A stretch of DNA of 60,381 bases, taken from positions 1 through 60,381 of the IMG/VR virus record IMGVR_UViG_3300027419_000035; one strand, 5' to 3'. The number at the start of each line of letters is the position of its first letter. Position 1 is the stretch's first letter. The position numbers were made by a program, and so were the translations under genes. The notes beneath the pieces are model-generated. The model made no database searches and was not told where the DNA came from. It saw only the letters and a program-made list of their open reading frames with translations. Shown here in pieces: positions 2-34,122 of this stretch. This DNA is from a virus. Taxonomy: Duplodnaviria; Caudoviricetes.

Positions 2-496
2 GGAACGTTAAATTCAACTAGTGCCAGTGGTACTTCTGGTAATCTTTGGGATGTAACGACCTTATCTTTACGTGATACTACTTCAATGGCACAATATGTT
101 GGTAGTGGTCTCTGTTTCGAGTTAAAATATAAAACAGATGGTTCTTATGCAGTAGTTGGTGGTATGTATGTTAGTAAAAACAACTCTACAAGTACTGATT
201 ATAACTCTGATTTGATCTTATGGAATAGAGGAAGTAGTGGAGATATTGTATTTTCTTGGGGAACGACAAAGGGAGATTTATCTACAAATGAAAAATTTAC
301 CTTTACCTCTGCTGGAAATTTTAACGCCACCGGAAACATAACAGCCAAAACATTTAATGTAATGAGATTCAGAGGTTATGGTACAACAGATCCAACAACA
401 GATTTGATCGAGGGAGATGTTTTTGATAACACTACCGGCGGTGGCCATAACGTAAAAATATATTCTAATAGTGCCTGGAGAAGTTTTGCAATTTAA
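2..496 (+). CDS. Tail fibre-like protein, C-terminal part (5' truncated)
   Basis: Frame is open from base 2 (GTLNSTSASG...). G/S/T/N-rich; 'FTFTSAGNFNATGNITA' and 'GTTDPTTDLIEGDVF' resemble phage fibre segments. Confidence 0.6.
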   Translation, partial: GTLNSTSASGTSGNLWDVTTLSLRDTTSMAQYVGSGLCFELKYKTDGSYAVVGGMYVSKNNSTSTDYNSDLILWNRGSSGDIVFSWGTTKGDLSTNEKFTFTSAGNFNATGNITAKTFNVMRFRGYGTTDPTTDLIEGDVFDNTTGGGHNVKIYSNSAWRSFAI

Positions 497-516
497 TAAT
501 ATTTTATGGAATTATA

Positions 517-2460
517 ATGAATATTGATAATAGAATAACTCTTACAAAGACACTTTCAAACCCGGATGAGTTTAATCATAATATTACTCAGTTCAGGAAC
601 GATGTTAGTTCATTAATACTGCAGGAGCTTAACCTTGAAGATTTTATATATAAATACTCTACTATTTATAGTGAAGACTATATAGAACAATTAAGGTTTA
701 CTCTTTTAGAAATGCGAGAAGAATTAATTGCACAAAAGATGTTGTGTGAGAATCTTGAATACTCTACTATTTTCCAGACAAGTTTTAATCAATCTGGTTT
801 ATTCTTACAGTATGATCCAAAATATTATAAAGATCCGAAAACAAACTATACATTTACAAGAGACAGTCTGCTTTCAGTCAACCTAAAGGCCGCAGCATTA
901 CAGTTGCCCATCCTTGATAAGGATACTGCAACGATAAAAAATATTGCCTTCAGCAATATACCTGTTGATAAGTCTTTGGTTTCTTCCACGAAACAGAGTG
1001 TATATCTCTATCAGAATACACCAGACGCATGTAATCTTGATGTTTTAGTAAGATTAAACAGCATTACGGAAATTAATAATATTACATTTAATATCAATAG
1101 TGAGTTTCCTGTTACATTATCAAAAATAGGATATTATAATAATGGTGTATATACTGAATTGAGTAATGTTAATCTGGAGAATCTGACAGGTTATGTAAGT
1201 ATGCCACTTTATTTGAACAATGTAAACATCGAAGCAGATGCGGTATTGCTCAAATTTATCCTTCCCTACTGTAAGGCGACGAACAGGCTATATAATGTTT
1301 CAACTATACAAGAGTTATTACAAAAACTTATAGGTACATCTGAATATATTGAACTTGATAATTACACTTCGGGTGAATACTCAAGTTATGTTTTTCATTT
1401 TGGCATTGATGATATAGAACTAAGCAAAATCACATATCAGACAGAAGGCATCTTTATCGGACAACCTAAAAAGTTCAAAGAACCGGCTCATTTCAAGATC
1501 AGAGTTGACCAACAGTCATCGAATGTTGGCATTGAATATTACCTGTTTATAACAGATTATGACTCCAAGGGAAATAAACTTTTTGGTTCAACAAAACTAA
1601 TTCCGATACTTATTGATGGCCAGACAAGTGTCGTTCGGGAAGTAATTAAATTTGTCAATAACAAAGCTATCTTGAATTTTTATCCTGACGATATAGAAAA
1701 TGTAAGTCTTTACTGTGATGACGTTGTTGTTGCGGAATTCAATTTGTCTGGCAAAACAATTACTCTGACCGGCACGAACGATTCAAGTATATATACCGTA
1801 AGTTATATTCCTTTCCACCTTACCAAAGACTATGTAACGCCACTTGTAAATCCACAGACAACTGTTGAATATGAACATGAGTTTATATATGATAATAATA
1901 ATGAATGCAAAGTTCTGATTACTACAGACGAAGGAGGGGTTAAAACAATTGCAGAAACTACACCGAATAATGAAGATGGTATTTCATATATCAAAATGGT
2001 CCTTCCATATGCTTATGATCCGACAAAAGCAATTACTATAAAACGTTATCTGAATAATAACAAGAATTTGCTTGATGATGCCGCACCCGTATTCTATATG
2101 TCCGGGGAAAATCAGAATGTATTTATTGTCGGAAGAATTCTGTATTTGCCGTTTAATTCCAGTTTATATCCAAAACTTACAACGTCTCTGTATATAGTAA
2201 AAGGAACATTGTTAAACATTTCAGTTACAGACGATGTATTGCTTTATTACGGCAAAGATAATTCTCTGATAATAAACTATGATGCTTTTGCTGCGTTATA
2301 TGGATCGACTTACAGTTATACACTTATTAATCCTGTTATAATCGCGCGCCTGCAGGATCTTACAAATACAGAAACATTTCTTAATCTCAAAAAATTCTAT
2401 CTGTATTCAAACACATTTAATGATTACATCCAAAATCCTAAAATATTAATAGAAACATGA
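517..2460 (+). CDS. Putative virion structural (baseplate/tail) protein
   Basis: 647 aa; helical N-terminus then beta-rich; lies in a tightly coupled structural operon. Confidence 0.5.
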   Translation: MNIDNRITLTKTLSNPDEFNHNITQFRNDVSSLILQELNLEDFIYKYSTIYSEDYIEQLRFTLLEMREELIAQKMLCENLEYSTIFQTSFNQSGLFLQYDPKYYKDPKTNYTFTRDSLLSVNLKAAALQLPILDKDTATIKNIAFSNIPVDKSLVSSTKQSVYLYQNTPDACNLDVLVRLNSITEINNITFNINSEFPVTLSKIGYYNNGVYTELSNVNLENLTGYVSMPLYLNNVNIEADAVLLKFILPYCKATNRLYNVSTIQELLQKLIGTSEYIELDNYTSGEYSSYVFHFGIDDIELSKITYQTEGIFIGQPKKFKEPAHFKIRVDQQSSNVGIEYYLFITDYDSKGNKLFGSTKLIPILIDGQTSVVREVIKFVNNKAILNFYPDDIENVSLYCDDVVVAEFNLSGKTITLTGTNDSSIYTVSYIPFHLTKDYVTPLVNPQTTVEYEHEFIYDNNNECKVLITTDEGGVKTIAETTPNNEDGISYIKMVLPYAYDPTKAITIKRYLNNNKNLLDDAAPVFYMSGENQNVFIVGRILYLPFNSSLYPKLTTSLYIVKGTLLNISVTDDVLLYYGKDNSLIINYDAFAALYGSTYSYTLINPVIIARLQDLTNTETFLNLKKFYLYSNTFNDYIQNPKILIET

Positions 2461-10928: not shown

Positions 10929-10957
10929 AATTACCTACAACTACATAAGAGACTATT

Positions 10958-20919: not shown

Positions 20920-21269
20920 TGTACAGTCTCCTTGTTTATGTGAGCTTCTTTTCTCCCTCCTTTTAAATAAAGCAGAAAGAAACCTCGAAGGATTTCAGAG
21001 GCCTTTTTGTTCACTTCACTTCCGGCCAGATCGGCTTCCAGGGGCAGTGGTGATTTATATAAAAAATCAGCCGGATCATCACTCTTCTTAAGCATATCAC
21101 GAAATACTATAATGGGTTTGGCAAACAAATATATAGTCTGAGAACCGGGGTCTTCATAGATCCCGAACTCAGAAAATAAATTGCTACCCATAAACAGACC
21201 ATTGAGATATTGTAAAAGGGCTTTTTGTCGTTCGCCTAATTCTGTTTTTTGTTTAACTTTCTTTCTCAT
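20916..21269 (-). CDS. Hypothetical protein
   Basis: 117 aa, coupled on both sides. Confidence 0.5.
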   Translation of the reverse strand: MRKKVKQKTELGERQKALLQYLNGLFMGSNLFSEFGIYEDPGSQTIYLFAKPIIVFRDMLKKSDDPADFLYKSPLPLEADLAGSEVNKKASEILRGFFLLYLKGGRKEAHINKETVQ

Positions 21270-22924: not shown

Positions 22925-23632
22925 TTAGAATTTACATTGGTTAATGAACTGACACGTTTTACAAGAGTCTGTATTTGGCACGTTATAATCACGCCCGATC
23001 AGATTGACGATTGATTCCAGGTCCTGCGATGCTCTCTGAATATACGAGTCAGATACATGGAATAGATTAACAGATGTTGAAAGTGCCACTCTTGCCTGAA
23101 TTTTTATAACATATAAATCTCTGATCGTATATCTCAGAGCCGCATTTAATGCGGCAAGTGCAAAACGAAATTCATTATCCCTTATATATAATTCCGGTTT
23201 CGTGGAAAACATAACCGGTATAATCTTATTCTGTTTTTTCTGAACCATTAATGCCGGAATGATCGCTCTGTACGTTCCTCTCGATACATCAAAATCAGCA
23301 GTGAAATTAATTGCAACCGTTTGAAGTTCATCTTTAAAAGTTTTCTTAAACTGATCAAAAAAATCTTTAAGTCCGAGTAGCATTGTACTTCCGTCTCTGG
23401 CATTTGTTGTATCTAGATTCTTTCCCCAATAAGTTAATAGAGGACGAATATCAGGAATATTCTCTACACGCATGTTTTCAAAAAATACACGTTCGATACA
23501 ATTCCTGATGTTTCGTTCGATTTGCGATATGGGATTTTGATGATTGTGGAACTTATTGAATAATAACGGACATCTTTGAAAAACAACAATATCGCTATGC
23601 TGCAATATTGTGGTTTTCACCATAGATTTCAT
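22925..23632 (-). CDS. Degenerate Cas4/AddB-like protein with Fe-S-type cysteines
   Basis: 'FQRCPL' plus C-terminal 'CKTCQFINQC'; PD-(D/E)XK acidic residues not evident. Confidence 0.6.
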   Translation of the reverse strand: MKSMVKTTILQHSDIVVFQRCPLLFNKFHNHQNPISQIERNIRNCIERVFFENMRVENIPDIRPLLTYWGKNLDTTNARDGSTMLLGLKDFFDQFKKTFKDELQTVAINFTADFDVSRGTYRAIIPALMVQKKQNKIIPVMFSTKPELYIRDNEFRFALAALNAALRYTIRDLYVIKIQARVALSTSVNLFHVSDSYIQRASQDLESIVNLIGRDYNVPNTDSCKTCQFINQCKF

Positions 23633-26237
23633 TCTCGTATGTTTTACTTAATAAATATTGATTCTGAGCCATAGGCTTCATTGATGCTGTTTCTGATTTG
23701 CCGAAATAATAGTTTCCAATTTTATTTCTTAATGATTCAGTTAATCCTACAATATCATTTCTTGTCATTTCAAGAAATACTGCATGTTCGTCAAGAAAAT
23801 AATAGTGCAATTCGCCCTTATATTTGCTTACTTTATTCTTTCCTATTATCATCCGGATAATTGGAGAACAATTATCCATGTTTCTCATCGATTCGGGAAT
23901 GGTTGGTCCCCAGAAATACATATCAGTATTTTCAGAATTATTATATGTCTCATTAATAAGGTGACCTATCCAGTTTGCATGGTATTCCAATGATTTTGAT
24001 TCTTTCATCATCTCGTTTAATTCGAGTCTTGAAGTAGAACCCTTCTGTCCTTTCTTATATTCAACGGTACAGAATCCCATGACTTTATATGGAACAAGAA
24101 TTTGTTGTTTCAATACTCTGGAGATTTCCTTAATACGCCGTACATCATCATCAATATTTGGAAAATCGGCAAGATTATAAAGATTATCACATATATAAAT
24201 AATGTGTCTGTCCGGATGTTTATCCTTCAGGTGCCTTATCATCATCTCAGCTGTCGTAAGAGTATTTCCGATGCCTGTGTCTTTGATGACAAGACGTTCA
24301 TCTCTTGCCCATTCACTGAGCTGCTTGAATGCATCATTCCTAGCTTCAAACAATAACTTGGGATCTCTGACTGCTGCAGAATTCGGATCATCCATATAAT
24401 TAATAGTTGCTTCCTGTGTTATTTCGAAAGCAAGGGCTGACAGAAATCTCGGAACTATCTCGTATCTTGCATCATCAATGGTATGATAAATAATAGTGAC
24501 GTTATTTATATTAATATCATCTTTTCGTTGATTCCAGTATTGAGCCTCCTGTCCTGCTTTTAATGCAGAGATACACCAGTTAATCATCCATGACGTTTTG
24601 CCTGAACTTGGTTGACCACCAAGCAGAAATAGTTTTCCTGCAGTTGAACCTCTGAATTTTTCTTCAAATCTCGGCATTCGCCAGAGACGAATAAAATCTT
24701 CATGAACTGACTGTTCTTGTTTTTGCTTTATATTCTGAAGTTCATGAAGATATTCCTGACCGTCCCAAAGATTTGTATTATGTCTTTCGCCTATACTACG
24801 TATAGAATCAAGTGTGCCGGATAAAATAACCTGTGCATCACTGGGATTCTTTTTTATTGATTTCATCAGGTTGTCAAGAATCGCATCACGTTCAGCTTCC
24901 ATCTGTATCTTATCGTCATTTGCGATTTTGCTGACTTCTTTACGGATTGTCATGATTGGTATGTCGCAGATATCTGATATCTGTTTGCACATCCTGTCAC
25001 GTTGTATTTCTGATTGTTCATTGACTATCAGCGGAATCATCTGACTGGCCAATTCATGGTTGTCAAAATCTTTTTCCTGCTGAAGCTTAAACAGTCTCCA
25101 TTCAAATGCTGTAATATGTGGGAGTCCGAGCAATTCTTTTATACTGAATTTTCTTACAAATGTATCTGGATCGTAATCTTCCGGAAGAGTGACAATTCTT
25201 ACTCTGAAATTTCTTATGCCTTCCATAACTTCAGTGATTATTCTTGCCGTATTTTCGATGCCAGGAGCATCGCCGTCCAGTAAGAATACAACGTCGGTTT
25301 CCCCGACTCTCTGTAACAATGATATATGGTCATTTGTAAATTTTGTACTGCCAATTGCAACGGCCTTCAGGCCTGCGCGGTCAAGAGTAATAGCATCTGT
25401 CTGACCTTCTACTATATATAAACTTGAATGTTTTGATACTTTCTTTGTTACTGCATGGTTAAGATTATATAACAGACTTCCCTTTTGAAACAAAGAATTG
25501 TTTTCTGTATTGTAATATTTGGATCCCACTTTATTACTGGGATCGAAATAACAATTACGCGCAGCAAAGCCTCTTGTAATGCCACGTTCATCAATGATAG
25601 CAAATATCAGATTATTGGGATTAAATATATATTGTTTGATTCCTATCTTATTCAGATATGTTTCATCAAGTTGATAACCTTTCAGTTCATTTAAAAAATC
25701 CTGCCAGTTTGGAACATATCCTAAAGCATATTCTTTGCTGTCTGTAGCAACATCCAACTGCTTGTCGTTCATATACTGAAGTACATTCTGATCGATAACT
25801 CCGGCCTTATCACATCCGAATCTCAACCTTGTTATAATAATATCTTTCACAAGATTATAAATCGAGCGCATGTTCATTTCTTCCATCTCTTCCTGAGATA
25901 AAGGTCGAAATTCATATTCGATATCGAACATTTCGCATAACATCTTCACATTCTGAGTCATAAATTCATAACCAATCAAAGGTACTTTGTTGATTACACT
26001 ATTGGCAACGAAAATATCGCCGACCTTATTCTCGGTAAAGCAGTAATACATCTTTTCATTGTTATAAGATTCAAAAATATGAAGGCTCGGAGTTCGATCA
26101 TTGTGTCCCGGATGGAAACAATGAAACATGTTCTTGTTTCCATTCCCACGTTTGATACCAGACTTTTCTAAAAATTCCGGTAGTTTTGATTTAAGAACCC
26201 GTTTGAGTTCTTCAAAATCTCTAATTGTTCTGCTCAT
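23595..26237 (-). CDS. dnaG: DnaG-type primase fused to DnaB-like helicase
   Basis: Zn-binding region 'CFHPGHNDRTPS'; 'KYYNT'; TOPRIM 'VEGQTD', 'LDGDAPG', 'DPD'; Walker A 'GGQPSSGKT'; 'ICDNL'; 'GKNK'. Confidence 0.88.
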   Translation of the reverse strand: MSRTIRDFEELKRVLKSKLPEFLEKSGIKRGNGNKNMFHCFHPGHNDRTPSLHIFESYNNEKMYYCFTENKVGDIFVANSVINKVPLIGYEFMTQNVKMLCEMFDIEYEFRPLSQEEMEEMNMRSIYNLVKDIIITRLRFGCDKAGVIDQNVLQYMNDKQLDVATDSKEYALGYVPNWQDFLNELKGYQLDETYLNKIGIKQYIFNPNNLIFAIIDERGITRGFAARNCYFDPSNKVGSKYYNTENNSLFQKGSLLYNLNHAVTKKVSKHSSLYIVEGQTDAITLDRAGLKAVAIGSTKFTNDHISLLQRVGETDVVFLLDGDAPGIENTARIITEVMEGIRNFRVRIVTLPEDYDPDTFVRKFSIKELLGLPHITAFEWRLFKLQQEKDFDNHELASQMIPLIVNEQSEIQRDRMCKQISDICDIPIMTIRKEVSKIANDDKIQMEAERDAILDNLMKSIKKNPSDAQVILSGTLDSIRSIGERHNTNLWDGQEYLHELQNIKQKQEQSVHEDFIRLWRMPRFEEKFRGSTAGKLFLLGGQPSSGKTSWMINWCISALKAGQEAQYWNQRKDDININNVTIIYHTIDDARYEIVPRFLSALAFEITQEATINYMDDPNSAAVRDPKLLFEARNDAFKQLSEWARDERLVIKDTGIGNTLTTAEMMIRHLKDKHPDRHIIYICDNLYNLADFPNIDDDVRRIKEISRVLKQQILVPYKVMGFCTVEYKKGQKGSTSRLELNEMMKESKSLEYHANWIGHLINETYNNSENTDMYFWGPTIPESMRNMDNCSPIIRMIIGKNKVSKYKGELHYYFLDEHAVFLEMTRNDIVGLTESLRNKIGNYYFGKSETASMKPMAQNQYLLSKTYENEIYGENHNIAA

Positions 26238-26613
26238 TATTATCTTCCTTTTGCTCGCCGACTGCATTGTAAAATAACAGATTTAGTAATTCCTGACTCG
26301 GTTCTTCACCGCATAATCTCAAATACTGTGTCTTAAAATCATTCTCTGTTATATTCGCATACTCAACGACGATACAAAATAACGTTAATGCAAGTTTCTG
26401 TGTTTCAGTCATACCTTTCGATATTATATCCATATGTTGTCCGAGTGTTTTTACATTCATCATAACAGAACTCCAGAAATTGCCCTGTCTTTCCTGTTCT
26501 TTAATAATACGTTTCATAATTGAAATATCATCGCCAGGTACTATTTGTTTGTTTTCCTGGTTAGTAAGATCACCCACACGGATGATCTTACTGTTTGGAG
26601 AGTTGTCACTCAT
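26221..26613 (-). CDS. Hypothetical protein
   Basis: 130 aa in the replication operon. Confidence 0.5.
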   Translation of the reverse strand: MSDNSPNSKIIRVGDLTNQENKQIVPGDDISIMKRIIKEQERQGNFWSSVMMNVKTLGQHMDIISKGMTETQKLALTLFCIVVEYANITENDFKTQYLRLCGEEPSQELLNLLFYNAVGEQKEDNNEQNN

Positions 26614-27629
26614 TTAGTTTTTCCATAGTAATGAGGAATAATATTTTCCAGCTTTTTATCTTTGGACAAAACCAATAAGGTTTGTTCTGCCATACCATAT
26701 AACCCGAGCTCATCGGAATAATCATTTGGACCTGCAGCGCTGCCAAGTCGTATTACCTTCATAGGGCCGATACTGACTAGTGCACTATCGTGCAAATGAC
26801 CGGTAAGTATGTAATCTACATTCTTAAAAATGTAATTAAGATTATGTACTTTATTCCTTGATCCAGGATTCATTAAATTGGCTGGCAACCTATGTGTAAG
26901 CAGGACTTTATTATCCTTTATAGTTGTCATAAAATATCTTTCTTCGAGAGGGAATTCCATACTTACATTATTAAGTATTGAACAGCCGACTTCTCTGCTT
27001 TTATGTATTGTGTTATAAAGAAATTTCATTGTACCGGTATCATAATTACTGGCAATCGGATGGGCTGCACTATTTGAGCGCTGTTCTCCATGATTACCGG
27101 CAACACCGATAATTTTTACTTTCCCTTTATCACCGATAAATTCGGCGGCTCTTACTGTGTTCTTAAAGATACAGTCCATAAACCGTGCCATTTGTTCCCA
27201 TATACTTGCCTGACTTACCAGACGAAATATTTGTCCGTCAAAAATAGAACCGTCGCCTTCAATATTGTCTCCGCCAAGTACGATAATGATTTCATCATAA
27301 TTGTCTTTTCCGGAAACTAATATTTCATTGAACGCCCTATCAAACAAAGAACATATGGCTTCGTCTCCAAGATCAAAATCATATGCAATCCGACTATTTC
27401 GTATGATTCTCTCGCCGAAATGTGAGTCGAATAGATTAATTAACATTGATTTTTTGCTCTTAGACTTCGGAGCTTTTGTAGGGATCTGTTTGGTATGTGC
27501 CTTAACGTTTGTCTGAAACCTTTCATCAATTAAAGATGTAAGTGTCTCACGCAAATCCACTCTATCAATACGTCTTGTTAACGGTGTATCGGGTAGACCG
27601 GAAGCAGGCATATCATTAAGATGAACCAT
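26610..27629 (-). CDS. Calcineurin-like metallophosphoesterase
   Basis: Five motifs: DSH, GGD, GNHG, H, GHLH. Confidence 0.85.
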   Translation of the reverse strand: MVHLNDMPASGLPDTPLTRRIDRVDLRETLTSLIDERFQTNVKAHTKQIPTKAPKSKSKKSMLINLFDSHFGERIIRNSRIAYDFDLGDEAICSLFDRAFNEILVSGKDNYDEIIIVLGGDNIEGDGSIFDGQIFRLVSQASIWEQMARFMDCIFKNTVRAAEFIGDKGKVKIIGVAGNHGEQRSNSAAHPIASNYDTGTMKFLYNTIHKSREVGCSILNNVSMEFPLEERYFMTTIKDNKVLLTHRLPANLMNPGSRNKVHNLNYIFKNVDYILTGHLHDSALVSIGPMKVIRLGSAAGPNDYSDELGLYGMAEQTLLVLSKDKKLENIIPHYYGKTK

Positions 27630-27656
27630 TGCTATCTCACTTTGTTGTTGGTGTTA

Positions 27657-30038
27657 TTAGAAATATAAATCAGTGAATCCTGGACAACATTGGAACCTGG
27701 TGTTTTGTCCCTGCATATCCAGAATTAAGTGGTGTGATTTTTTGTTTACTGTTAGATCAGTGTATTTATTGTGTAATGTATTTAAAAATTTAAGTCCATA
27801 ATTATTCATTGGTATTGTTGCAACAAGTGGACTTGAAAACGATGTAATCTCATTTTCAAATGAAGCAATAGAAGTTACTTTATATCTGTTCTCTTCAAGT
27901 ATTCTTGTATTAACACATACAATCGTGCCGACAAGTTTATCCATGCCGCTTTTACCGATTCTCGACCATACATCAGAAAATATCTGATAAGTTGTATCGG
28001 GATCGTTCTCAAACGATATAAAACAACCGTTCTTCTTTTTCTTGAAGATGCTGTAGCCTTTAAGAAAATCTACTCTTGCAGTGGGATTTTCTTTTTTATA
28101 ATTGCTTATGGCTTCCTGGTAAATAATGAATGGATTAGAAGTTAACCATAATTCTGTGACTTCTTTTTCGAGGGCAATAAGTTTAATTTCCGGATACTCC
28201 GGTTCAAAAGGCAACTGTATCCATTCTTCATCAAAAGGCAGAGGAATATATCCTTTATTGATGAACCGTTTTACCATTTCTGTCAGTTCATCTATATACA
28301 TTAAAGGTTCGTCTTTACCCTCGCGCAATATATGCATCAGTTGTGATCGTTTTGCAAAAGAATCAAAACAACCCGCCTTTATCATATTTAATACGATATT
28401 ACTTTTTGTATTGGTGCGATAAAGAAAATCTGTTACAGATTTATAGGCCCCATTTTTGTTGCGTTCTTCAATAATCGGTTCAGCTGCAGATTCGCCTACA
28501 TTGACAATACCCGCAAGACCAAAACGGATTTTTTTGTCGTTAACAATAGTAAAAATTCCATTTGATTCATTCACATCAGGGGATAAGATATCTATGCTAA
28601 ATAATTTTGCTTCATAAATAAACTCAGTGAATTTATGTATGTCGCCCAACTCATAGGCAATATTTGCAACATAAAATTCAGTAGGATAATGTGCTTTAAG
28701 CCATGCGGTCACCATTGTATTCTTTGCATAAGACACGGCATGAGCTTTATTGAAAGCATAATTTGAAAATTTCTCCATCTCTTCCCAGAGATGATCGATA
28801 TCTTCCTGTGTTAGTCCTTTCTCAAGAGCTTTTGATGTAAATCTTTTCTTTTCTTTCTCTATCTTTTCACGCTGTTTCTTTGCAACCATCTTTCTGAATT
28901 CATCGGCTTCTGAATCATTATATCCAGCAAGTAACTGAACAGTTTTCTGAATCTGCTCTTGGAAAATAAAATATCCATATGTTTCAGCAAGGATATCTTT
29001 CAGGATTGGAAATCTTTCAGAATGAGGTTCGATTTCAATACTAGTCCTGCCATTCTTCTTGTCTTTTATACTCATTGCAAAAGCCATCGGGCCAGGCCGG
29101 TAACCGGCCAGTATAAAAGCAACATCCATAAAATTCTTGGGTTTAAAATCCCTTGTATAACTGGATATATCTTTACCTTCTAACTGGAATATTCCAAGAA
29201 GATTTCCTGTTGCCAGCAATTTATAAATATCAGGATCAGAAAAATCAACATTCAATGAATTATAATTTGTTTTATGTCTTTCATTGACAAGTTTGAATGC
29301 CATATCAATAACAGATAATGTTTTTAAACCCAACAAATCCATCTTGATAAGTCCAAGTTGTTCACTTTCATTCATATCGAATTCAAGTATTCTCGAATTC
29401 TTCTTCATATAAGTTGGAGCTATATCATCAATCTTCTGATTTGATATAATAATACCAGCAGCGTGTTGACTACGGTTATTATATGTGCCGTATAGTTTAC
29501 GTGCGTATTTAAATAAATTAACTACTTCGGGATCACTTGTCTCAAGAATGGCTAATTCTTTAACCTCCTGAATAGCCTCGTCAACACTCCAGTTTACTCC
29601 CTGCTTTGGATCTGGAATTAATCTTGCAATGTAATCTACTTTATCGCTCGACATGCCAAGTGCCTTTCCCACCTGTCTGATTGCAAGTTTCGCATGCATT
29701 ACGCCATATGTACCGATATTTGTAACGCGATTGCTGCCATACTTATTCCGGAGATATTCTATTACCTCCTCTCTTCTGTCTTTGGCAATGTCGGTATCAA
29801 TGTCCGGCATTGTACCACCTTTATATTTTAAAGGTTCGGTCGGTTTTTCATCGGTAATACCAACAAGATAAGCAACTATTGAATTGCTTTTGTTAGTTAC
29901 TTTTGTTTTGAAATTAAGCATATCAAAGAAATAAGGTTCCATCTTATGAATTTCGATTGCCCCTATTTCCTTCTTAAAACTGGCATAGTCAACTTCATTC
30001 AGTCTGTCGCTTTCTAAACATAATTTACGTAACTTCAT
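27657..30038 (-). CDS. dnaE: DNA polymerase III alpha, C-terminal half (palm Asp, fingers, HhH)
   Basis: 'MPDIDTD', 'HAAGII', 'KMDLLGL', 'FQLE', 'RPGP', 'FQEQ', 'YAFNKAHA', 'PDVNES'. Confidence 0.93.
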   Translation of the reverse strand: MKLRKLCLESDRLNEVDYASFKKEIGAIEIHKMEPYFFDMLNFKTKVTNKSNSIVAYLVGITDEKPTEPLKYKGGTMPDIDTDIAKDRREEVIEYLRNKYGSNRVTNIGTYGVMHAKLAIRQVGKALGMSSDKVDYIARLIPDPKQGVNWSVDEAIQEVKELAILETSDPEVVNLFKYARKLYGTYNNRSQHAAGIIISNQKIDDIAPTYMKKNSRILEFDMNESEQLGLIKMDLLGLKTLSVIDMAFKLVNERHKTNYNSLNVDFSDPDIYKLLATGNLLGIFQLEGKDISSYTRDFKPKNFMDVAFILAGYRPGPMAFAMSIKDKKNGRTSIEIEPHSERFPILKDILAETYGYFIFQEQIQKTVQLLAGYNDSEADEFRKMVAKKQREKIEKEKKRFTSKALEKGLTQEDIDHLWEEMEKFSNYAFNKAHAVSYAKNTMVTAWLKAHYPTEFYVANIAYELGDIHKFTEFIYEAKLFSIDILSPDVNESNGIFTIVNDKKIRFGLAGIVNVGESAAEPIIEERNKNGAYKSVTDFLYRTNTKSNIVLNMIKAGCFDSFAKRSQLMHILREGKDEPLMYIDELTEMVKRFINKGYIPLPFDEEWIQLPFEPEYPEIKLIALEKEVTELWLTSNPFIIYQEAISNYKKENPTARVDFLKGYSIFKKKKNGCFISFENDPDTTYQIFSDVWSRIGKSGMDKLVGTIVCVNTRILEENRYKVTSIASFENEITSFSSPLVATIPMNNYGLKFLNTLHNKYTDLTVNKKSHHLILDMQGQNTRFQCCPGFTDLYF

Positions 30039-30052
30039 ATTTCTGCCTGTTA

Positions 30053-30511
30053 TTATGCGGCTTCATTAAGATTGCGTTTTCCTAACCGTTCATCAATTAA
30101 CATTTCAATCTTATCTTTTGCTGTTTTTGATATATTCTCATTGCTACGTTTTATATATAATGCGTTTGCCGATGATATATGATATTCTAAAGCGCAGCCT
30201 ATTATGTTGTGTAGTCTTTCAAAAAAGCATTTATCCTCTTTTGTTTTAAAATTCCAGGCACGACCGCATTTTTTACAGTAATATGCATATACACCGGTAG
30301 TACCAAAATCATCATAATCGGTTTTTTCAATAAATTCTTCCAGCTGTTCAATAGTATAATTACCAAGAAAATCGGCAAGTTTATTATCTAAAGCCAGTGT
30401 AAATAAATTAAAATTAATCACTTCCATTCCATCGATTGAACGCGGTGTCTGCGTCTCAACGGAAGGTTCTTGTACAGTAATATTTTCCTGTACAGAAATT
30501 TCATTTTCCAT
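30053..30511 (-). CDS. Hypothetical protein (CxxC, possible Zn ribbon)
   Basis: ATG 30511; 'YCKKCG'. Confidence 0.5.
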   Translation of the reverse strand: MENEISVQENITVQEPSVETQTPRSIDGMEVINFNLFTLALDNKLADFLGNYTIEQLEEFIEKTDYDDFGTTGVYAYYCKKCGRAWNFKTKEDKCFFERLHNIIGCALEYHISSANALYIKRSNENISKTAKDKIEMLIDERLGKRNLNEAA

Positions 30512-30572
30512 TCTTTGGATCTCGTTGTTGGTGTAGTATGTTATAAGAAGGGAGAAATATCTCCCTTTAATC

Positions 30573-31178
30573 TTAATTATAAGTGGTAGAATCACCAGTG
30601 CGACTAGAACATACATATGAAGACATTTTATTAAATGCATTCACAGTACCCGGTCCGTCTGATACATATGAATAGGTGGCCGAACGCATTATGCCAAGTG
30701 ATGCTCCGACTGCGAATACATCCTGGTTTGCCCCAAGATATGTGAAATCCCATTTATAAACATCCTGTTGATGTTTTATTCTTTCAAATGCATCTGACTG
30801 TTTATATTTGGTACTTGAATTTTCTTCTCCGTCAGTTAATATTGCCACAATAACTTTTTCCGGACGATCCTTTTCATTCATCTGTGCAAGATGTTTACCT
30901 GTTTTGTCAATGATTTCACATAACACATCATATAAGGCGGTTGAACCGCTTGGATTGTATGTAATATCATCAAGATCCGGTAGTCTATTAATATCAACAA
31001 AATCAGCAACAATATTATAATCGTTACTGAATAAAACGTGTGTAATAGTTGCTGTATTAGGTAGGTCTCTCTGTGTTTTTACAAAATTATTAAAACCGCC
31101 TATAGTATCGTTTTTAATTTTGTGCATTGAACCTGATTTATCTGTAATACACACTATATGGGTATAACCTTTTTTCAT
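30573..31178 (-). CDS. von Willebrand factor A domain protein
   Basis: MIDAS motifs 'DKSGSM', 'GSTALYD', 'ILTDGEENSS', 'YLGANQD'. Confidence 0.9.
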   Translation of the reverse strand: MKKGYTHIVCITDKSGSMHKIKNDTIGGFNNFVKTQRDLPNTATITHVLFSNDYNIVADFVDINRLPDLDDITYNPSGSTALYDVLCEIIDKTGKHLAQMNEKDRPEKVIVAILTDGEENSSTKYKQSDAFERIKHQQDVYKWDFTYLGANQDVFAVGASLGIMRSATYSYVSDGPGTVNAFNKMSSYVCSSRTGDSTTYN

Positions 31179-31199
31179 GATTTCTCTTTGTAGTTATTG

Positions 31200-31484
31200 T
31201 TATTTTTCATTTCTGAGTTTTACAATAGAGTCATATGTATCTTCTTCTGCTGTTTCTATATCAAGCATATACTGGTTGTTCTCGTCAAGATAGGCATCAG
31301 AAACTGCAAGTAACCATGTTGATATTCTTGTTCCGTTTCTTTCATTGTCTTTATCGAGTATACGAAAAATGTCACCGGTCTTGATATCTTTAAAATCAAT
31401 TGTTTCATGATCTTCTTCAGAAGAGTATTTATAAATTGCTCTAAGTATAACTTTCTTTGATTCTGTATTTTGTTCTTGTTCCAT
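31200..31484 (-). CDS. Hypothetical protein
   Basis: 94 aa. Confidence 0.5.
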   Translation of the reverse strand: MEQEQNTESKKVILRAIYKYSSEEDHETIDFKDIKTGDIFRILDKDNERNGTRISTWLLAVSDAYLDENNQYMLDIETAEEDTYDSIVKLRNEK

Positions 31485-31487
31485 TTT

Positions 31488-31871
31488 CTATTTCTCTCCT
31501 ATAAACTTGTCGATTACAGGTTGAGCCTCTTTTGTCCACGCGAACAACAGTCCGCAAGTAGGACAATAGTTTAAATAACTTGCCATATTTTTCTGACTCC
31601 ATATATTTAAACTATGAATAATTACCTTAGTATAATATTCGTTATTTCTCATCCATTTTGCAACAACACTGCCATAATCTTCTTGGTCAAAATCTATCTG
31701 TTTGCCATTTAAATCATGGTCAAGCATAACAAGATCAAAATGATTATTTTTTAATTGTTCGATAGCTTCATATGAATGTTCTACTATAGTAAGATCATAT
31801 CTATCCATGTTTATCTGAAAGGCAGCAATTCTTTCTTTACTGTCCTCAAGTATTAATATCTTCTTTCTCAT
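31488..31871 (-). CDS. Receiver-fold protein (cyclic-phosphate-processing receiver type)
   Basis: 'ILILED...R', 'MLDHDL', 'IIHSLN'. Confidence 0.75.
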   Translation of the reverse strand: MRKKILILEDSKERIAAFQINMDRYDLTIVEHSYEAIEQLKNNHFDLVMLDHDLNGKQIDFDQEDYGSVVAKWMRNNEYYTKVIIHSLNIWSQKNMASYLNYCPTCGLLFAWTKEAQPVIDKFIGEK

Positions 31872-32088
31872 TCTTTAATTTATCCCATTCAGGGCATTCA
31901 AACATTGGTGTAGTGATATGGTATTTTACGCAATTATCGAATGTAGCTTGTGCAATTCTACAATTGAATAAAGTACCTGGTAAAAATTTACTGCATTTAA
32001 AACAAAGACACATATCTCTATGTTTGCCTTTTAATTCTTCAAAGACAAATACATCTTTACCATGGTGGTTATATTTTATTACTGTCAT
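31846..32088 (-). CDS. Cys-rich small protein
   Basis: 'CLCFKC...C...C...CP'. Confidence 0.55.
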   Translation of the reverse strand: MTVIKYNHHGKDVFVFEELKGKHRDMCLCFKCSKFLPGTLFNCRIAQATFDNCVKYHITTPMFECPEWDKLKNEKEDINT

Positions 32089-32121
32089 TTTATATTTTGA
32101 TTAATTAATAAAAATAGTTGG

Positions 32122-33465
32122 TTAAACAGCCAGTCTGGAATTTTGTTGTTGTTTCAGTTTCCATTCAGCAAAGGGATATTCAGGAAAGTCTATTTGTGGT
32201 ATTGATGCTCTCCCTGAGTTCAGGAATCTCGCAAAGGAGAGATCATATTCGAGAGGATTTACTTCGGTAATTTCGAGAGCATAAGCTACGATAGAGCCAG
32301 CGGCCGACCCTCTACCAGGCCCGACCGGAATTCCTGTTTTCTTTGCCCATTTTATATAGTCAGAGACCATAAGAAAATATGATGGAAACGTCATTTGTAT
32401 AATTACGGTAATCTCTTCCATTGCACGTGACATTATTTCGGCAGGAATGGGATTGCCGAATCTCATCTTTAATCCTTCTTCTACAGCTTTAATAAAAACA
32501 TCGTCTTCATCTTTAAGATCTGCTATATGAGGCAACTGGAAGTTACCAAAATCAAACTTAATATTGCAACGTTCTGCAATTTCCATAGTATTATGAACGG
32601 CTTCCGAATGACCGGGAAATCTTTTGAGCATCTCCCCCTCCGTCGGAAAAAAGTAACCGTCACCGCTATATTTTATCTTTTGCATTTTTTCATCATGCAC
32701 CGTGCAATTGCTTCTTATAGCAAGCATGATGTCATGGGCGTGTTCGTCTTCCGGTTCAACAAAATGCGTATCACCGGTAGCTATTGTTTTTAAACCCAGT
32801 TTACCGGCAGTATCAAATATTACATCTTGAACCCTGGACTCGGCCGCAATTCCATGATGTTGTACTTCAAGGTATAGTCTGTCGCCAAAAATCTTTTTAT
32901 GCCAGCCAATAACATCTTTATATGACTCTGTAAGCATCCGCGTTTCATCTTCTGAATCAAGATGAGCGCACTCGAGATCGTCCTCGCCCTCATCGTCAAT
33001 CGAATGAATGTTCAGATCTTTCAGTATCACTTTTGCTACATTGCCCTGTAAACAACCGGTCAGGCAAATTAATCCTTCATTATACTTTGCAAGCAATTCT
33101 CTGTCTATCCTGGGTTTTATATAAACAAAATCCGGATTATAACTCATCGTAACTAATTTAGTAAGATTTTTCCATCCAGTCTGATTCATTACAAGTAGAG
33201 TAAGATGATAATATTTATCTATACCATGAACCTTTTGGGTTCTATGCCGAGTACTTACATATACTTCACAACCGATTATAGGTTTGATGTCATTCTCATT
33301 GCATTCTGAATAAACTTCAAGTGCTGCACCCAACGTACCATGATCCGTTATGGCCATTGCCGAATGGCCAAAGGCTTTCGCCTTGCCGACTAGTTCGGGA
33401 ACTTTAGCTATTGAATCACGAATTGAATATATAGAATGACAATGAAGATTTATAAAATTTGACAT
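32122..33465 (-). CDS. dnaE: DNA polymerase III alpha, N-terminal half (PHP domain plus start of palm)
   Basis: 'HCHSIYS', 'ITDHG', 'GCE', 'HLTLL', 'KPRID', 'DTH', 'GPGRGSAAGSIVAYAL', 'FARFLN'. Confidence 0.93.
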   Translation of the reverse strand: MSNFINLHCHSIYSIRDSIAKVPELVGKAKAFGHSAMAITDHGTLGAALEVYSECNENDIKPIIGCEVYVSTRHRTQKVHGIDKYYHLTLLVMNQTGWKNLTKLVTMSYNPDFVYIKPRIDRELLAKYNEGLICLTGCLQGNVAKVILKDLNIHSIDDEGEDDLECAHLDSEDETRMLTESYKDVIGWHKKIFGDRLYLEVQHHGIAAESRVQDVIFDTAGKLGLKTIATGDTHFVEPEDEHAHDIMLAIRSNCTVHDEKMQKIKYSGDGYFFPTEGEMLKRFPGHSEAVHNTMEIAERCNIKFDFGNFQLPHIADLKDEDDVFIKAVEEGLKMRFGNPIPAEIMSRAMEEITVIIQMTFPSYFLMVSDYIKWAKKTGIPVGPGRGSAAGSIVAYALEITEVNPLEYDLSFARFLNSGRASIPQIDFPEYPFAEWKLKQQQNSRLAV

Positions 33466-33467
33466 TA

Positions 33468-33653
33468 TTACCTCAATGCCATTTCTTGTTCCATATCATA
33501 TACCTTATCATCAAGACGTGTAATTGTATTTTCGTATTCTTTTATCTGTCCTTTCAGATCTTCGTTTTCTACTTCGAGTTCATCAATAGCGTTTAGAAGA
33601 CTGTCTATTATATATGATATATTTTCCGCTTCTCTTTTTAATTTATAATCCAT
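33468..33653 (-). CDS. Small coiled-coil protein
   Basis: 61 aa with heptad pattern. Confidence 0.5.
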   Translation of the reverse strand: MDYKLKREAENISYIIDSLLNAIDELEVENEDLKGQIKEYENTITRLDDKVYDMEQEMALR

Positions 33654-33669
33654 TATTAATATCCTTTTA

Positions 33670-34122
33670 TTAACCTACTTTTTTATAAACAAGTAAATAT
33701 CTTTCATCAAATCTTCCGCCAGAACATTTTTTACATGAATACCGTCTTTTAGGTTGTCTATTCATATGATAAATCATATTGCAACACTGACATATGGCCT
33801 GATATTTTCCAGCCGGAATTTTTACATCTGAACTTAAATATTTTGAAGGCTCAATACCAAAAGTCCTTGCGACACGCCGCCATTTGTAGTTATGAGCTTG
33901 CCAGGGACCGACAATAGCATGAGCGACTTCATGTTTTATTATTTTTTCTATGGCTTCCATATCGTTTGTCAGTATGTACGGCAGCGAAATGTAGATAGTC
34001 TTTTCTTTGTGTGCACATCTGCCGCCAAAGCATTTTGAACGTATTATATCAACGTTCCATGTAGAAAGATTATTTTCATTCAGTATCCTCCTTGCCATCT
34101 CAAAAGTATCTTCGATTTTCAT
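33670..34122 (-). CDS. SprT-like Zn metalloprotease
   Basis: HEVAH, 'H..W', C-terminal CxxC...CxxC. Confidence 0.85.
   Translation of the reverse strand: MKIEDTFEMARRILNENNLSTWNVDIIRSKCFGGRCAHKEKTIYISLPYILTNDMEAIEKIIKHEVAHAIVGPWQAHNYKWRRVARTFGIEPSKYLSSDVKIPAGKYQAICQCCNMIYHMNRQPKRRYSCKKCSGGRFDERYLLVYKKVG

What the first reader, a model, noticed from the sequence alone, without database searches (positions are those of the whole stretch)
27657..33465. Intein-less split DnaE with a duplicated, reciprocally degenerate junction; the active site is divided between two genes
Seen: dnaE is two clean ORFs separated by about 2 kb and five unrelated genes. There is no intein motif (no junction Cys, no HN-C/S) and no intron structure. 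The N-half ends ...RAMEEITVIIQMTFPSYFLM...GRGSAAGSIVAYALEITEVNP...FARFLNSGRASIPQIDF. The C-half begins ...FKKEIGAIEIHKMEPYFFDM...NKSNSIVAYLVGITDEKP...GGTMPDIDTD. So the same roughly 75-90 aa palm segment is in both halves. The N-half keeps the GS motif and the RFLN..R arginines, but its PDIDxD motif has decayed to PQIDF. The C-half keeps PDIDTD but has lost the GS motif and arginines. Known: in family C polymerases the GS motif and arginines bind the dNTP triphosphate and PD.D.D supplies catalytic Asp; the classic split DnaE (cyanobacteria) uses a split intein. Inference: duplication followed by complementary loss produced a heterodimeric polymerase whose catalytic site forms in trans.
Basis: partly seen in the sequence, partly recalled or inferred. 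Interest (0 to 1): 0.85.

Follow-up and report, generated by a model that had tools for sequence, protein, structure and literature searches.

The report
Two-gene phage DnaE with overlapping halves
A large environmental phage makes its replicative DNA polymerase from two separate genes that both keep a copy of the same piece of the catalytic core, one copy holding the nucleotide-binding motifs and the other sitting next to the metal-binding motifs, and this odd arrangement is conserved in a whole group of related phages.

Summary
On the minus strand, a 447-aa N-half (32122-33465: PHP domain plus first palm segment) and a 793-aa C-half (27657-30038: second copy of that segment, then the rest of DnaE) overlap on Pfam PF07733 positions 68-105 and on Taq DnaE residues 428-466. 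It is not an artefact. An independent contig bridges the gap. The split defines a monophyletic clade (25 N-half and 17 C-half protein clusters; 8 loci with both genes). In three 75-88% complete relatives it is the only DNA polymerase found.

Both overlap copies are under purifying selection, so neither is decaying. RGS and the two Arg are invariant in 26 of 26 N-halves. The Asp triad, Lys and third Asp are invariant in 18 of 18 C-halves.

Models place the N-half on E. coli alpha residues 3-394 and the C-half on 396-911. That leaves the C-half head (1-72) and the N-half tail (418-447) as extra parts in a confidently modelled interface.

In relatives the two genes lie 0.14-0.6 kb apart. The 2 kb here is lineage-specific cargo plus one conserved small Cys/His-motif ORF.

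Best reading: an obligate, non-covalent two-subunit DnaE with a composite active site. This is a new variant of known split polymerases. No biochemistry exists.

The parts
32122..33465 (-). dnaE N-half gene (447 aa): PHP domain plus the first palm segment
   Evidence: ORF. Pfam PHP E 3.8e-47 and PF07733 positions 3-105 E 3.8e-39. The AF2 model (pLDDT 84.3) superposes on Taq DnaE 2hpi with Z 38.2, rmsd 3.3 A and 386 residues aligned. On 4jom, model residues 1..417 align to chain residues 3..394.
32854..33447 (-). PHP domain (residues 7-204 by Pfam)
   Evidence: H8, H10, D17, H42, E67, H87, C138, D232 and H234 are invariant in 26 of 26 N-halves. That these nine are the PHP metal-site positions is recalled, not tested here.
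32185..32439 (-). N-half copy of the palm segment (residues 343-427). It holds RGS (32305-32313), RFLNSGR (32209-32229) and the strand IPQIDF without catalytic Asp (32185-32202).
   Evidence: It aligns to Taq 382-466. R385, G386, S387, R413 and R419 are invariant in 26 of 26. At the Asp-equivalent positions, D occurs in 1, 11 and 2 of 26. This is the most conserved part of the N-half: mean pairwise identity 0.62 against 0.51 for PHP.
32125..32184 (-). N-half C-terminal tail (residues 428-447), with no counterpart in unsplit DnaE
   Evidence: F427 is invariant, E429 is kept in 25 of 26, and the consensus is FxEYPxxxW. Residues 417-427 fall below pLDDT 50 in the monomer model. Residues 407-430, 432, 435-436 and 439 lie in the modelled interface.
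31846..32088 (-). Cargo ORF, 80 aa, no family hit
   Evidence: No homologue was found in the other clade loci compared.
31488..31871 (-). Cargo ORF, 127 aa, receiver-like domain
   Evidence: Pfam cREC_REC PF20274 E 1.4e-12. Not found in the other clade loci.
31200..31484 (-). Cargo ORF, 94 aa, no family hit
30573..31178 (-). Cargo ORF, 201 aa, phage family of unknown function
   Evidence: phrog_7371 E 2.7e-49. No Pfam hit at E<=0.01.
30053..30511 (-). Conserved small ORF with a CxxC...H...C motif, just upstream of the C-half. The longest ORF runs to 30640; the likely start is Met44 at 30511.
   Evidence: Homologues lie between the halves in L004, L005, L035, L037, L038, L041 and L044 (BLASTP E 2e-11 to 5e-18). 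It is absent in L003. No Pfam or PHROG hit. The Atlas search gave no usable hit.
29823..30038 (-). C-half head (residues 1-72): second copy of the palm segment, without RGS and without the Arg pair
   Evidence: Pfam and HMMER overlap from residue 51. Weaker collinear homology from residue 3. Invariant in 18 of 18: S10, R12, K23, E24, G26, E29, E34, Y36, S53 and P66. Mean pairwise identity is 0.53. The AF2 model shows an all-helical head. The head is left out of all 16 structural alignments to DnaE/PolC, which start at residues 73-77.
27657..29822 (-). Rest of the C-half: catalytic strand PDIDTD (29790-29807), K232/D234 (29337-29345), thumb, fingers, HhH and an OB-like C-terminal domain
   Evidence: D79, D81, D83, K232 and D234 are invariant in 18 of 18. 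Pfam finger and HHH_6 hits. Model residues 73..591 align to 4jom residues 396..911 with Z 21.2, rmsd 4.6 A and 500 aligned. OB-fold matches at residues 649-732 reach Z about 7.

Best explanation
This is the replicative family-C (DnaE-type) DNA polymerase of a large phage, about 150-200 kb. It is encoded as two genes whose products assemble non-covalently into one alpha subunit, with no protein or RNA splicing.

**N-subunit.** It supplies the PHP domain and the first palm segment in its normal place. That segment carries the nucleotide-triphosphate-binding RGS loop and the two Arg residues.

**C-subunit.** It supplies everything from the catalytic strand onward: the PDIDxD aspartates, the Lys and third Asp, thumb, fingers, HhH and an OB-like domain.

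**Active site.** It is therefore composite, with nucleotide-binding residues from one chain and metal ligands from the other.

**The extra pieces.** The break left each chain with a redundant piece. The C-subunit keeps an N-terminal helical head that descends from the same palm segment but has lost the catalytic motifs. The N-subunit keeps a copy of the catalytic strand without its aspartates, plus a short new tail. Both pieces are under purifying selection. They most likely act as the clasp that holds the two chains together.

**Shown versus inferred.**
- Shown: the gene structure, its conservation, the motif distribution and the structural complementarity of the models.
- Inferred: actual assembly, activity, the clasp role, and the origin by a duplicating gene break.
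For: **1. The arrangement is real and conserved.**
- There are 25 clusters of N-halves (422-489 aa, 45-59% identity) and 17 clusters of C-halves (774-811 aa).
- In 8 of 8 clade loci with enough flank, the N-half lies upstream of the C-half on the same strand.
- The clade is one branch of the tree: 25 rows, SH-aLRT 100.
- A 32,435-nt contig from another assembler covers 27600-32453 with no differences, though it may come from the source sample.

**2. It is the only polymerase found.** Three relatives (75-88% complete) hold only the two PF07733 pieces and no PolA or PolB Pfam match.

**3. Motifs are kept reciprocally and invariantly.**
- N-halves: R385, G386, S387, R413 and R419 in 26 of 26.
- C-halves: D79, D81, D83, K232 and D234 in 18 of 18.
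- 0 of 26 N-halves have PD[IV]DxD.
- 0 of 18 C-halves have RGS at the homologous place.

**4. The models are structurally complementary.** The N-half model residues 1..417 align to E. coli alpha (4jom) 3..394. The C-half model residues 73..591 align to 396..911.

**5. The complex model passes.**
- ipSAE is 0.84, 0.83 and 0.84 in three runs, against 0.00 for the best of 3 controls. This mark was reached by 58 of 80 solved complexes and 2 of 110 mismatched pairs.
- The runs agree in at least 97% of contacts, and the partner pLDDT is at least 85.
- The pass may come from memory of solved single-chain DnaE structures. It shows likeness, not binding.
- In the model, N 370-381 touches the C helix 85-95 that follows the catalytic strand. 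The head (18-56, 70-76) and the tail (407-439) are in the interface.

**6. The extra pieces are conserved.** The head has mean pairwise identity 0.53, against 0.45 for the Mg-binding palm. F427 is invariant and E429 is kept in 25 of 26.

**7. An intein marks the N-copy as the important one.** In the related locus L034 a mini-intein sits inside the GS motif of the N-copy. That inteins favour functionally critical sites is recalled, not tested here.

**8. Precedents exist.**
- Split NrdA of phage Aeh1 needs its break-derived tails (PMC3045599, abstract).
- Split gp43A and gp43B co-purify and polymerise (PMC2988022, passage).
- A minimal Pol III alpha split into NTP-binding and Mg-binding proteins has been proposed (PMC7824862, passages).
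Against: - No expression, interaction or activity data exist for any member.
- The complex score is the kind expected for halves of a protein whose whole structure is solved, so it adds little beyond showing that the pieces still fit.
- The tool gave no coordinates. The position of the head and tail relative to each other is therefore not known, and the clasp role is an inference.
- The roles I give to the RGS loop and the Arg pair in family-C polymerases rest on recalled knowledge of Pol beta-like nucleotidyltransferases and the Taq ternary complex. No call tested them.
- Homology of head residues 1-50 to the palm is only marginal.
- The relatives searched for other polymerases are incomplete (75-88%), and only Pfam PolA and PolB models were used.
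Confidence: 0.7

Rival explanations
1. The C-half is a self-sufficient polymerase that binds dNTP in a non-canonical way, with its own head in the palm. The N-half is a separate PHP exonuclease or accessory subunit that uses its palm fragment only for docking. In this reading the active site is not formed in trans.
For: The C-half carries all metal ligands and the conserved Lys. Its head is conserved and confidently folded, with pLDDT 77-89. PHP-only N-parts exist in other phage DnaE splits (L009-L011), which shows that PHP can be a separate chain.
Against: RGS and both Arg are invariant in 26 of 26 N-halves, which is hard to explain for a mere docking piece. The head lacks them in 18 of 18. 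The head is left out of all 16 structural alignments to DnaE/PolC. The complex model puts the N-copy, not the head, beside the helix that follows the catalytic strand. In the PHP-only splits the C-part keeps a normal GRGS.
Confidence: 0.12
2. A single full-length DnaE is made after all, by RNA splicing, ribosomal bypass or protein splicing that removes one copy of the overlap and everything between.
For: Relatives do carry inteins, intein fragments and an HNH-type ORF inside dnaE pieces. In L003 and L005 the halves happen to lie in the same reading frame.
Against: Neither half has a Hint/intein hit. There is no Rfam intron in 27000-34000 at E<=1, nor in seven clade loci at gathering score. Both overlap copies and the tail are conserved as protein, so both are translated and selected. 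L003 has two in-frame stops between the halves. The gap holds 0 to about 8 unrelated ORFs in different members. The frames differ in the window and in L004.
Confidence: 0.05
3. This rival concerns origin only. The overlap did not arise by duplication inside one gene. It arose by recombination between two different dnaE genes, or from an older PHP|palm split whose N-part later captured a palm segment. Another possibility is a staggered break made by a mobile element such as an intein or homing endonuclease at the GS motif.
For: - PHP|palm splits without duplication exist (L009-L011), and their C-parts start at the position that matches the start of the head.
- In L018 the N-part ends at PF07733 position 65 with a Hint N-fragment. 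Its C-part, 8.6 kb away, starts its Pfam match at position 68, as the window's C-half does.
- A conserved small ORF abuts or overlaps the C-half start, as homing endonuclease genes do in fractured genes (PMC2677866, passages).
Against: The small ORF matches no endonuclease family. The tree does not resolve the order of the split types. The two copies are too short and too diverged to tell their donors apart.
Confidence: 0.3
4. Assembly artefact or decaying pseudogene pair.
For: The record is a 60-kb fragment of a metagenome-derived virus, with estimated completeness 36%.
Against: The structure is the same in 8 loci from different records. A second assembler's contig bridges the gap. All ORFs are intact and conserved, with invariant catalytic residues.
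Confidence: 0.02

Closest known systems
Minimal split DNA polymerase III alpha of group 2.2 jumbo phages (Iyer et al. 2021, PMC7824862; passages read)
   Same: The Pol beta-like catalytic module is divided between two proteins, described there as an N-terminal NTP-binding unit and a C-terminal Mg2+- and template-binding unit. They were predicted to reconstitute one enzyme.
   Different: That form is minimal: it has no PHP or other DnaE domains. It is encoded by distant genes and accompanies a family B polymerase. Here the enzyme is a full DnaE with PHP, fingers, HhH and an OB-like domain. The genes are neighbours in relatives. No PolA or PolB was found in three relatives. Both chains also keep a copy of the same segment, and no such overlap is mentioned in the passages I read.
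Split NrdA-a/NrdA-b of Aeromonas phage Aeh1 (Crona et al. 2011, PMC3045599; abstract read)
   Same: An essential enzyme is broken into two genes without intein or intron. It is reassembled non-covalently. The unique tails at the break are essential and act as interaction domains.
   Different: There the break is caused by the homing endonuclease mobE, and the tails are new sequence from the insertion. Here no endonuclease is recognisable, and the extra pieces are copies of the enzyme's own palm segment.
Split family-B polymerase gp43A/gp43B of Aeromonas phages 25 and 44RR (reviewed in PMC2988022; passages read)
   Same: A phage replicative polymerase is encoded by two adjacent genes. The products co-purify and polymerise.
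   Different: It belongs to a different polymerase family. No duplicated junction is mentioned in the passages read.
Split-intein DnaE of cyanobacteria and the fractured DnaE loci of Dassa et al. 2009 (PMC2677866; passages read)
   Same: dnaE lies in two genes. In fractured genes a small free-standing ORF sits between the halves and often overlaps the start of the downstream half.
   Different: Those use split inteins that ligate the halves, and they sit at other insertion points. Here there is no Hint domain, the halves overlap, and the product must stay in two chains.
PHP|palm two-gene DnaE of other phages (loci L009-L011; PHROGs of about 460-aa and about 800-aa DnaE pieces)
   Same: Phage DnaE is encoded as an N-part and a C-part. 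PHROGs already holds separate families for such pieces: phrog_7513, 13169, 11165 and 12219.
   Different: In those loci the break lies between PHP and palm, and the C-part keeps a normal GRGS and Asp triad with no duplication.

Membership tests
Family-C DNA polymerase, DnaE type (Pol III alpha) | N-terminal PHP domain | tested here: met
   Pfam PF02811 E 3.8e-47 on the N-half. Structural match to DnaE PHP.
Family-C DNA polymerase, DnaE type (Pol III alpha) | Pol beta-like palm (PF07733) with three catalytic Asp, E. coli D401, D403 and D555 (PMC3919608, passage read) | tested here: met
   D79, D81 and D234, plus D83 (the D405 equivalent), are invariant in 18 of 18 C-halves. PF07733 is covered only by the two chains together: positions 3-105 and 68-260.
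Family-C DNA polymerase, DnaE type (Pol III alpha) | Fingers and HhH domains | tested here: met
   PF17657 E 2.1e-40 and PF14579 E 1.9e-23.
Family-C DNA polymerase, DnaE type (Pol III alpha) | One polypeptide carrying the whole catalytic core | tested here: not met
   Two ORFs, with stops in every clade locus examined.
Split-intein DnaE / fractured genes | Hint (intein) blocks at the break: N-terminal Cys/Ser, and C-terminal His-Asn followed by a nucleophile | tested here: not met
   No Hint or intein Pfam hit in either half at E<=0.01. The same search finds Hint domains in L018 and L034.
Split-intein DnaE / fractured genes | Free-standing homing endonuclease gene between the halves | tested here: inconclusive
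   None of the five intervening ORFs hits an endonuclease family in Pfam or PHROGs. The conserved Cys/His-motif ORF is unassigned.
Minimal split Pol III alpha of jumbo phages (PMC7824862) | NTP-binding and Mg-binding subdomains on separate proteins | tested here: met
   RGS and the Arg residues occur only in the N-half. The Asp triad occurs only in the C-half.
Minimal split Pol III alpha of jumbo phages (PMC7824862) | Lacks PHP and the other DnaE domains, and co-occurs with a family B polymerase | tested here: not met
   PHP, fingers and HhH are present. No PF00136 match in the window record or in 3 relatives.
Endonuclease-fragmented genes assembled by break-derived tails (Aeh1 NrdA type) | Unique terminal sequences at the break that are needed for assembly | not testable with these tools
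   The head and tail exist, are conserved and lie in the modelled interface. Whether they are needed requires experiment.

The most novel reading that the evidence does not exclude
This would be an obligate heterodimeric family-C replicase whose active site is built from two chains, and in which a duplicated sub-domain has been partitioned. One copy kept catalysis. The other copy, together with a de-aspartated copy of the catalytic strand on the partner chain, was re-used as a permanent inter-subunit clasp. That would be subfunctionalisation below the level of a domain. It has been stable through more than 50% sequence divergence and recurs in several phage lineages: L006/L007/L025, L008 and L034 show the same pattern of GS motif in the N-part and Asp triad in the C-part. 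The inter-gene gap has since become a landing site for accessory genes.
Probability: 0.55. Interest if true: 0.65.

Novelty: new variant of a known kind. Interest (0 to 1): 0.55.

Why it matters
Split replicative polymerases are known, and so are genes broken by mobile elements. In the known cases the pieces are either ligated by inteins or held together by new tails.

Here the pieces overlap. Both copies of the overlap have been kept by selection, and they carry complementary motifs. That gives a natural, testable example of three things:
- how an essential enzyme survives being broken inside its catalytic fold;
- how a redundant segment can be turned into an assembly element;
- how far the Pol beta-like palm tolerates having its nucleotide-binding half and its metal-binding half on different chains.

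It also matters for annotation. Pipelines call such halves partial or pseudogenised DnaE.

It may be of practical use as a naturally evolved split-polymerase pair.

Tried and rejected
**Close relatives in annotated phages.** Megablast of the 5.8-kb region found nothing. tblastn found only unsplit genes at 40% identity or less. Exact-peptide scanning of IMG/VR with the single C-half found nothing. The alignment-based scans worked.

**Direct BLASTP of the two halves.** Not significant: E 0.19 over 20 aa.

**Head homology.** An HMM of head residues 1-50 alone gave a best collinear E of 0.08 against 100 full-length DnaEs. I therefore do not claim firm homology for that stretch on its own.

**Intron search.** Rfam gave only a chance sroH hit at 20 bits (gathering score 80) in the window region. 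In seven clade loci it gave only a tRNA. The breaks inside the C-halves of L005 and L041 are therefore unexplained. L041 has an HNH-like ORF in one break.

**The conserved Cys/His-motif ORF.** No Pfam or PHROG hit. The Atlas gave no usable feature hit and only TM scores below 0.4, on a poor model with pLDDT 0.43.

**Single origin of all overlapping splits.** The tree leaves L034, L008 and L006/L007/L025 unresolved beside the clade and 21 unsplit rows. Rows left out of that tree:
- L001 and L002 (pieces of the window);
- L027, L030, L033 and L044 (under 200 aligned residues);
- every second protein of P0139-P0174.

**Sequencing runs.**
- No RNA holder was listed, so nothing can be said on expression.
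- Run X2, a second study at depth about 3, holds near-identical short contigs over parts of both halves. It has none over 29964-31933, and no contig joins across that stretch. A part without cover proves nothing.

**Structural search.** Foldseek gave no aligned ranges, so I used VIA-align for them (and 89/90). No solved chain in those lists covers C-half residues 1-72.

**Literature.** Five searches and the passages read turned up no description of a DnaE split with an overlapping, duplicated junction. Subscription papers were not searched, for example Petrov et al. 2010 on gp43 and the Taq ternary-complex paper. The figures and supplements of PMC7824862 and PMC2677866 may show details that I could not see.

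Full report
**What is there.** The window is a 60,381-base IMG/VR virus record with estimated completeness 36%. On the minus strand lie two intact ORFs: 32122-33465 (447 aa) and 27657-30038 (793 aa). They are separated by 2083 nt that hold five further minus-strand ORFs.

- Pfam puts PHP (E 3.8e-47) and PF07733 profile positions 3-105 on the first ORF. It puts PF07733 positions 68-260, the finger domain and HHH_6 on the second.
- Against Taq DnaE (2hpi), the N-half aligns up to residue 466, ending with IPQIDF opposite MPDIDT. The C-half aligns from residue 428.
- The neighbours form a replication module: a DnaG-DnaB-type primase-helicase, a metallophosphoesterase, a SprT-like protein, a UDG-like protein and RecA.

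**How far the overlap reaches.** C-half residues 51-83 are unambiguously the DnaE segment that the N-half also carries. Upstream of residue 51 the evidence is weaker.

- Direct BLASTP of the halves gives E 0.19.
- Profile-profile comparison aligns N 351-405 with C 24-67 at E 1e-3, probability 22%.
- An HMM of head residues 1-72 aligns collinearly (positions 3-68) with residues about 303-386 of three of 100 full-length DnaEs at E 1e-6 to 3e-6.
- An HMM of residues 1-50 alone is not significant; its best collinear E is 0.08.
- tblastn of the whole C-half against unsplit phage genes starts at residue 3 in several records.

I read the head as a diverged copy of the palm segment from about N-half residue 322 onward. 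That is firm for its last third and probable for the rest.

**Not an artefact, and not unique.**

- A protein search restricted to lengths of 245-783 aa returned 25 clusters of N-halves of 422-489 aa at 45-59% identity. Below them identity falls to 43% or less, mostly longer proteins and DnaE pieces of other lengths.
- The C-half search returned 17 clusters of 774-811 aa. Below them came mainly full-length DnaEs of about 1000-1250 aa.
- Scans of IMG/VR and metagenome contigs gave clade loci L003 (also fetched as L036), L004, L005, L035, L037, L038, L041 and the short L044.
- In 8 of 8 loci with enough flank (window included), the N-half lies upstream of the C-half on the same strand.
- In a tree of the palm-thumb region (75 rows, 281 columns), the 25 clade rows form one branch with SH-aLRT 100.
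- A 32,435-nt contig made by a different assembler from run X1, possibly the source sample, covers 27600-32453 without a difference.
- Three relatives of 154-177 kb, estimated 75-88% complete, contain only the two PF07733 pieces and no Pfam PolA or PolB match. The split enzyme is therefore the only recognisable DNA polymerase of these phages.

**The gap.** The 2 kb with five genes is a local state.

- The distance from N-half stop to C-half start is 138 nt in L003, 353 in L004 and 612 in L005. It is about 0.3-0.6 kb in L038 and L035, about 1.3 kb in L041 and about 2.65 kb in L037.
- One of the window's five ORFs is conserved. This is 30053-30511, a small protein with a CxxC...H...C motif. It lies between the halves in 8 of 9 loci and is missing in L003.
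- In 7 of those 8 loci it abuts or overlaps the C-half start. In L037 it lies about 1 kb upstream.
- It matches no family.
- The other four window ORFs have no counterpart in the other clade loci compared. They are a phrog_7371 protein, a cREC_REC receiver-like protein and two orphans.
- L037 and L041 carry different cargo in the same place, for example proteins that look by eye like a Nudix hydrolase and a thioredoxin. I did not test those two assignments.
- The gap therefore behaves as an insertion hot spot.

**Selection on the overlap.** Neither copy is decaying.

| Region | Mean pairwise identity within the clade |
|---|---|
| N-copy (residues 343-427) | 0.62 |
| PHP domain | 0.51 |
| C-half head (residues 1-72) | 0.53 |
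| Mg-binding palm | 0.45 |
| Fingers | 0.52 |
| C-terminal domain | 0.22 |

- In the N-halves, R385, G386, S387, R413, R419, P423 and F427 are invariant (26 of 26).
- The three positions that correspond to the DnaE aspartates hold Asp in 1, 11 and 2 of 26 N-halves.
- In the C-halves, D79, D81, D83, K232 and D234 are invariant (18 of 18).
- None of the 18 C-halves has RGS at the homologous place. The one KGS found lies at residue 69 of P0131, a different position.
- The head has its own invariant residues: S10, R12, K23, E24, G26, E29, E34, Y36, S53, P66, G74 and G75.

**Structure.**

- The AF2 model of the N-half has mean pLDDT 84.3. It superposes on DnaE as one body: 2hpi with Z 38.2, rmsd 3.3 A and 386 residues aligned. 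On E. coli alpha (4jom), model residues 1..417 correspond to chain residues 3..394.
- N-half residues 417-427, the strand without aspartates, fall below pLDDT 50 when the chain is folded alone.
- The C-half model has pLDDT 85.6. It superposes from residues 73-77 onward in all 16 DnaE/PolC rows, for example 4jom with model 73..591 aligned to chain 396..911, Z 21.2 and rmsd 4.6 A.
- Its head is a confident helical unit (helices 2-8, 18-30, 34-42, 54-59) joined by a low-confidence linker at 73-76. It is not part of any of those superpositions.
- The two models thus tile E. coli alpha with a joint at about 394|396, just before the catalytic strand. That leaves C 1-72 and N 418-447 as extras.
- The complex prediction used the whole N-half with C-half residues 1-450, each with its alignment. 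It scored ipSAE 0.84, 0.83 and 0.84 against 0.00 for the best of three controls. This mark was reached by 58 of 80 solved complexes and 2 of 110 mismatched pairs. The runs agree in at least 97% of contacts, and the partner pLDDT is at least 85.
- Whole DnaE structures are solved, so this pass may reflect memory of the fold. It shows that the pieces still fit, not that they bind.
- In the complex model, N 370-381 lies against C 85-95, the helix after the catalytic strand. The head (18-56, 70-76) and the N tail (407-439) are both in the interface.

**Inteins and other breaks in relatives.** Neither half has a Hint domain, and no intron family was found. More distant phage loci show that this part of dnaE is often broken.

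- L006, L007, L025 and L008 repeat the pattern of GS motif in the N-part and Asp triad in the C-part, with a motif-less head.
- L034 has the same pattern plus a mini-intein inside the GS motif of its N-copy.
- In L018 the N-part ends at PF07733 position 65 with a Hint N-fragment. Its C-part lies 8.6 kb downstream and starts its Pfam match at position 68.
- L012 and L017 break just before the catalytic strand.
- L009-L011 break between PHP and palm, with no duplication.
- The C-halves of L005 and L041 are broken again, and L041 has an HNH-like ORF in one break.
- PHROGs already has separate families for such N-pieces and C-pieces.

**Mechanism I commit to (confidence about 0.7).** The two products form a non-covalent alpha subunit.

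- The N-subunit brings the PHP domain. Nine His/Asp/Glu/Cys positions in it are invariant, which I recall to be the metal-site pattern of active PHP proofreaders.
- The N-subunit also brings the nucleotide-binding loop and Arg pair, in their normal place.
- The C-subunit brings the metal ligands and everything downstream.
- The motif-less head and the de-aspartated strand plus tail are kept because they hold the chains together. This is comparable to the break-derived tails of split NrdA in phage Aeh1 (PMC3045599, abstract).

The roles of the RGS loop and the Arg residues in triphosphate binding are recalled knowledge of Pol beta-like nucleotidyltransferases. The Asp assignments are from PMC3919608 (passage).

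**Rivals.**

- A self-sufficient C-half with an accessory N-half (0.12).
- A joined product made by some splicing or bypass (0.05).
- An artefact or pseudogene pair (0.02).
- For the origin only, alternatives to simple internal duplication (0.3).

**Comparison with what is known.**

- Split phage polymerases and endonuclease-fragmented genes are established (PMC2988022 and PMC2677866, passages).
- Iyer et al. proposed a minimal Pol III alpha divided into NTP-binding and Mg-binding proteins in other jumbo phages (PMC7824862, passages). That form lacks PHP and the other domains and accompanies a family B polymerase.
- Three surveys of family-C polymerases mention no such overlapping split in the passages I read: PMC3919608, PMC12926913 and PMC3201878.
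- Five literature searches found none.

I therefore class this as a new variant of a known kind: a full DnaE, split inside the palm, with a conserved duplicated junction and reciprocal motif retention.

**Limits.**

- There are no expression or activity data.
- The complex tool gives no coordinates.
- Supplementary files and subscription papers were not available.

Noticed in passing
window 30053-30511 (-); L004 9634-10050, L005 9565-10011, L035 8571-9032, L037 7488-7994, L038 8532-9038, L041 4088-4420, L044 286-771: A small protein with a CxxC...H...C motif and no family assignment is conserved between the two dnaE halves in 8 of 9 loci. It usually abuts or overlaps the C-half start, as free-standing endonuclease genes do in fractured genes. 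Its function is unknown.
   Followed up: partly
window 31488-31871 (-): A 127-aa receiver-like ORF lies among the lineage-specific cargo between the halves. It hits Pfam cREC_REC PF20274 (E 1.4e-12), described as a cyclic-phosphate processing receiver domain. It has a weak MC4/ABC-3C hit at E 0.001.
   Followed up: no
window 30573-31178 (-): A 201-aa ORF of phrog_7371 (E 2.7e-49, unknown function) is also cargo in the gap. It has no Pfam hit.
   Followed up: no
L041 4457-7821; L005 9995-12788: C-halves of two clade members are broken again. L041 is in three pieces, with an HNH-like ORF (5508-6002) in the break at the conserved RPGP motif. L005 is in two pieces with a 380-nt gap at residue 355/357. 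No Rfam intron reached gathering score.
   Followed up: partly
L034 4057-4860; L018 3-1619 and 9785-12334: In L034 a mini-intein sits inside the GS motif of the N-copy. In L018 the N-part ends in a Hint N-fragment right at the GS motif. The L018 C-part lies 8.6 kb away and has a helical head but no recognisable intein C-fragment. This may be a dead split intein.
   Followed up: partly
L025/L028, L033 (also fetched as L048), L008: Other large phages carry dnaE in three or more pieces spread over up to about 15 kb. L025 has pieces at 4565-5920, 9932-11548 and 19785-21029. L033 has one 1614-aa frame with large insertions.
   Followed up: no
L003 9851-9991: In L003, and also in L005, the two halves lie in the same reading frame. 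In L003 only 138 nt separate them, with two in-frame stops (TAA, TAG). The frames differ in the window and in L004, so this is probably chance.
   Followed up: yes
window 26610-27629 (-): A metallophosphoesterase gene (Pfam Metallophos E 9.4e-5) directly follows the C-half. It is conserved in that place in L037, L038 and L041 by BLASTP. ORFs of similar size follow the C-half in L003-L005.
   Followed up: partly
window 23595-26267 (-): An 890-aa fusion of a DnaG-type primase (zinc ribbon, catalytic core, Toprim) with a DnaB-like helicase C-terminal domain.
   Followed up: no
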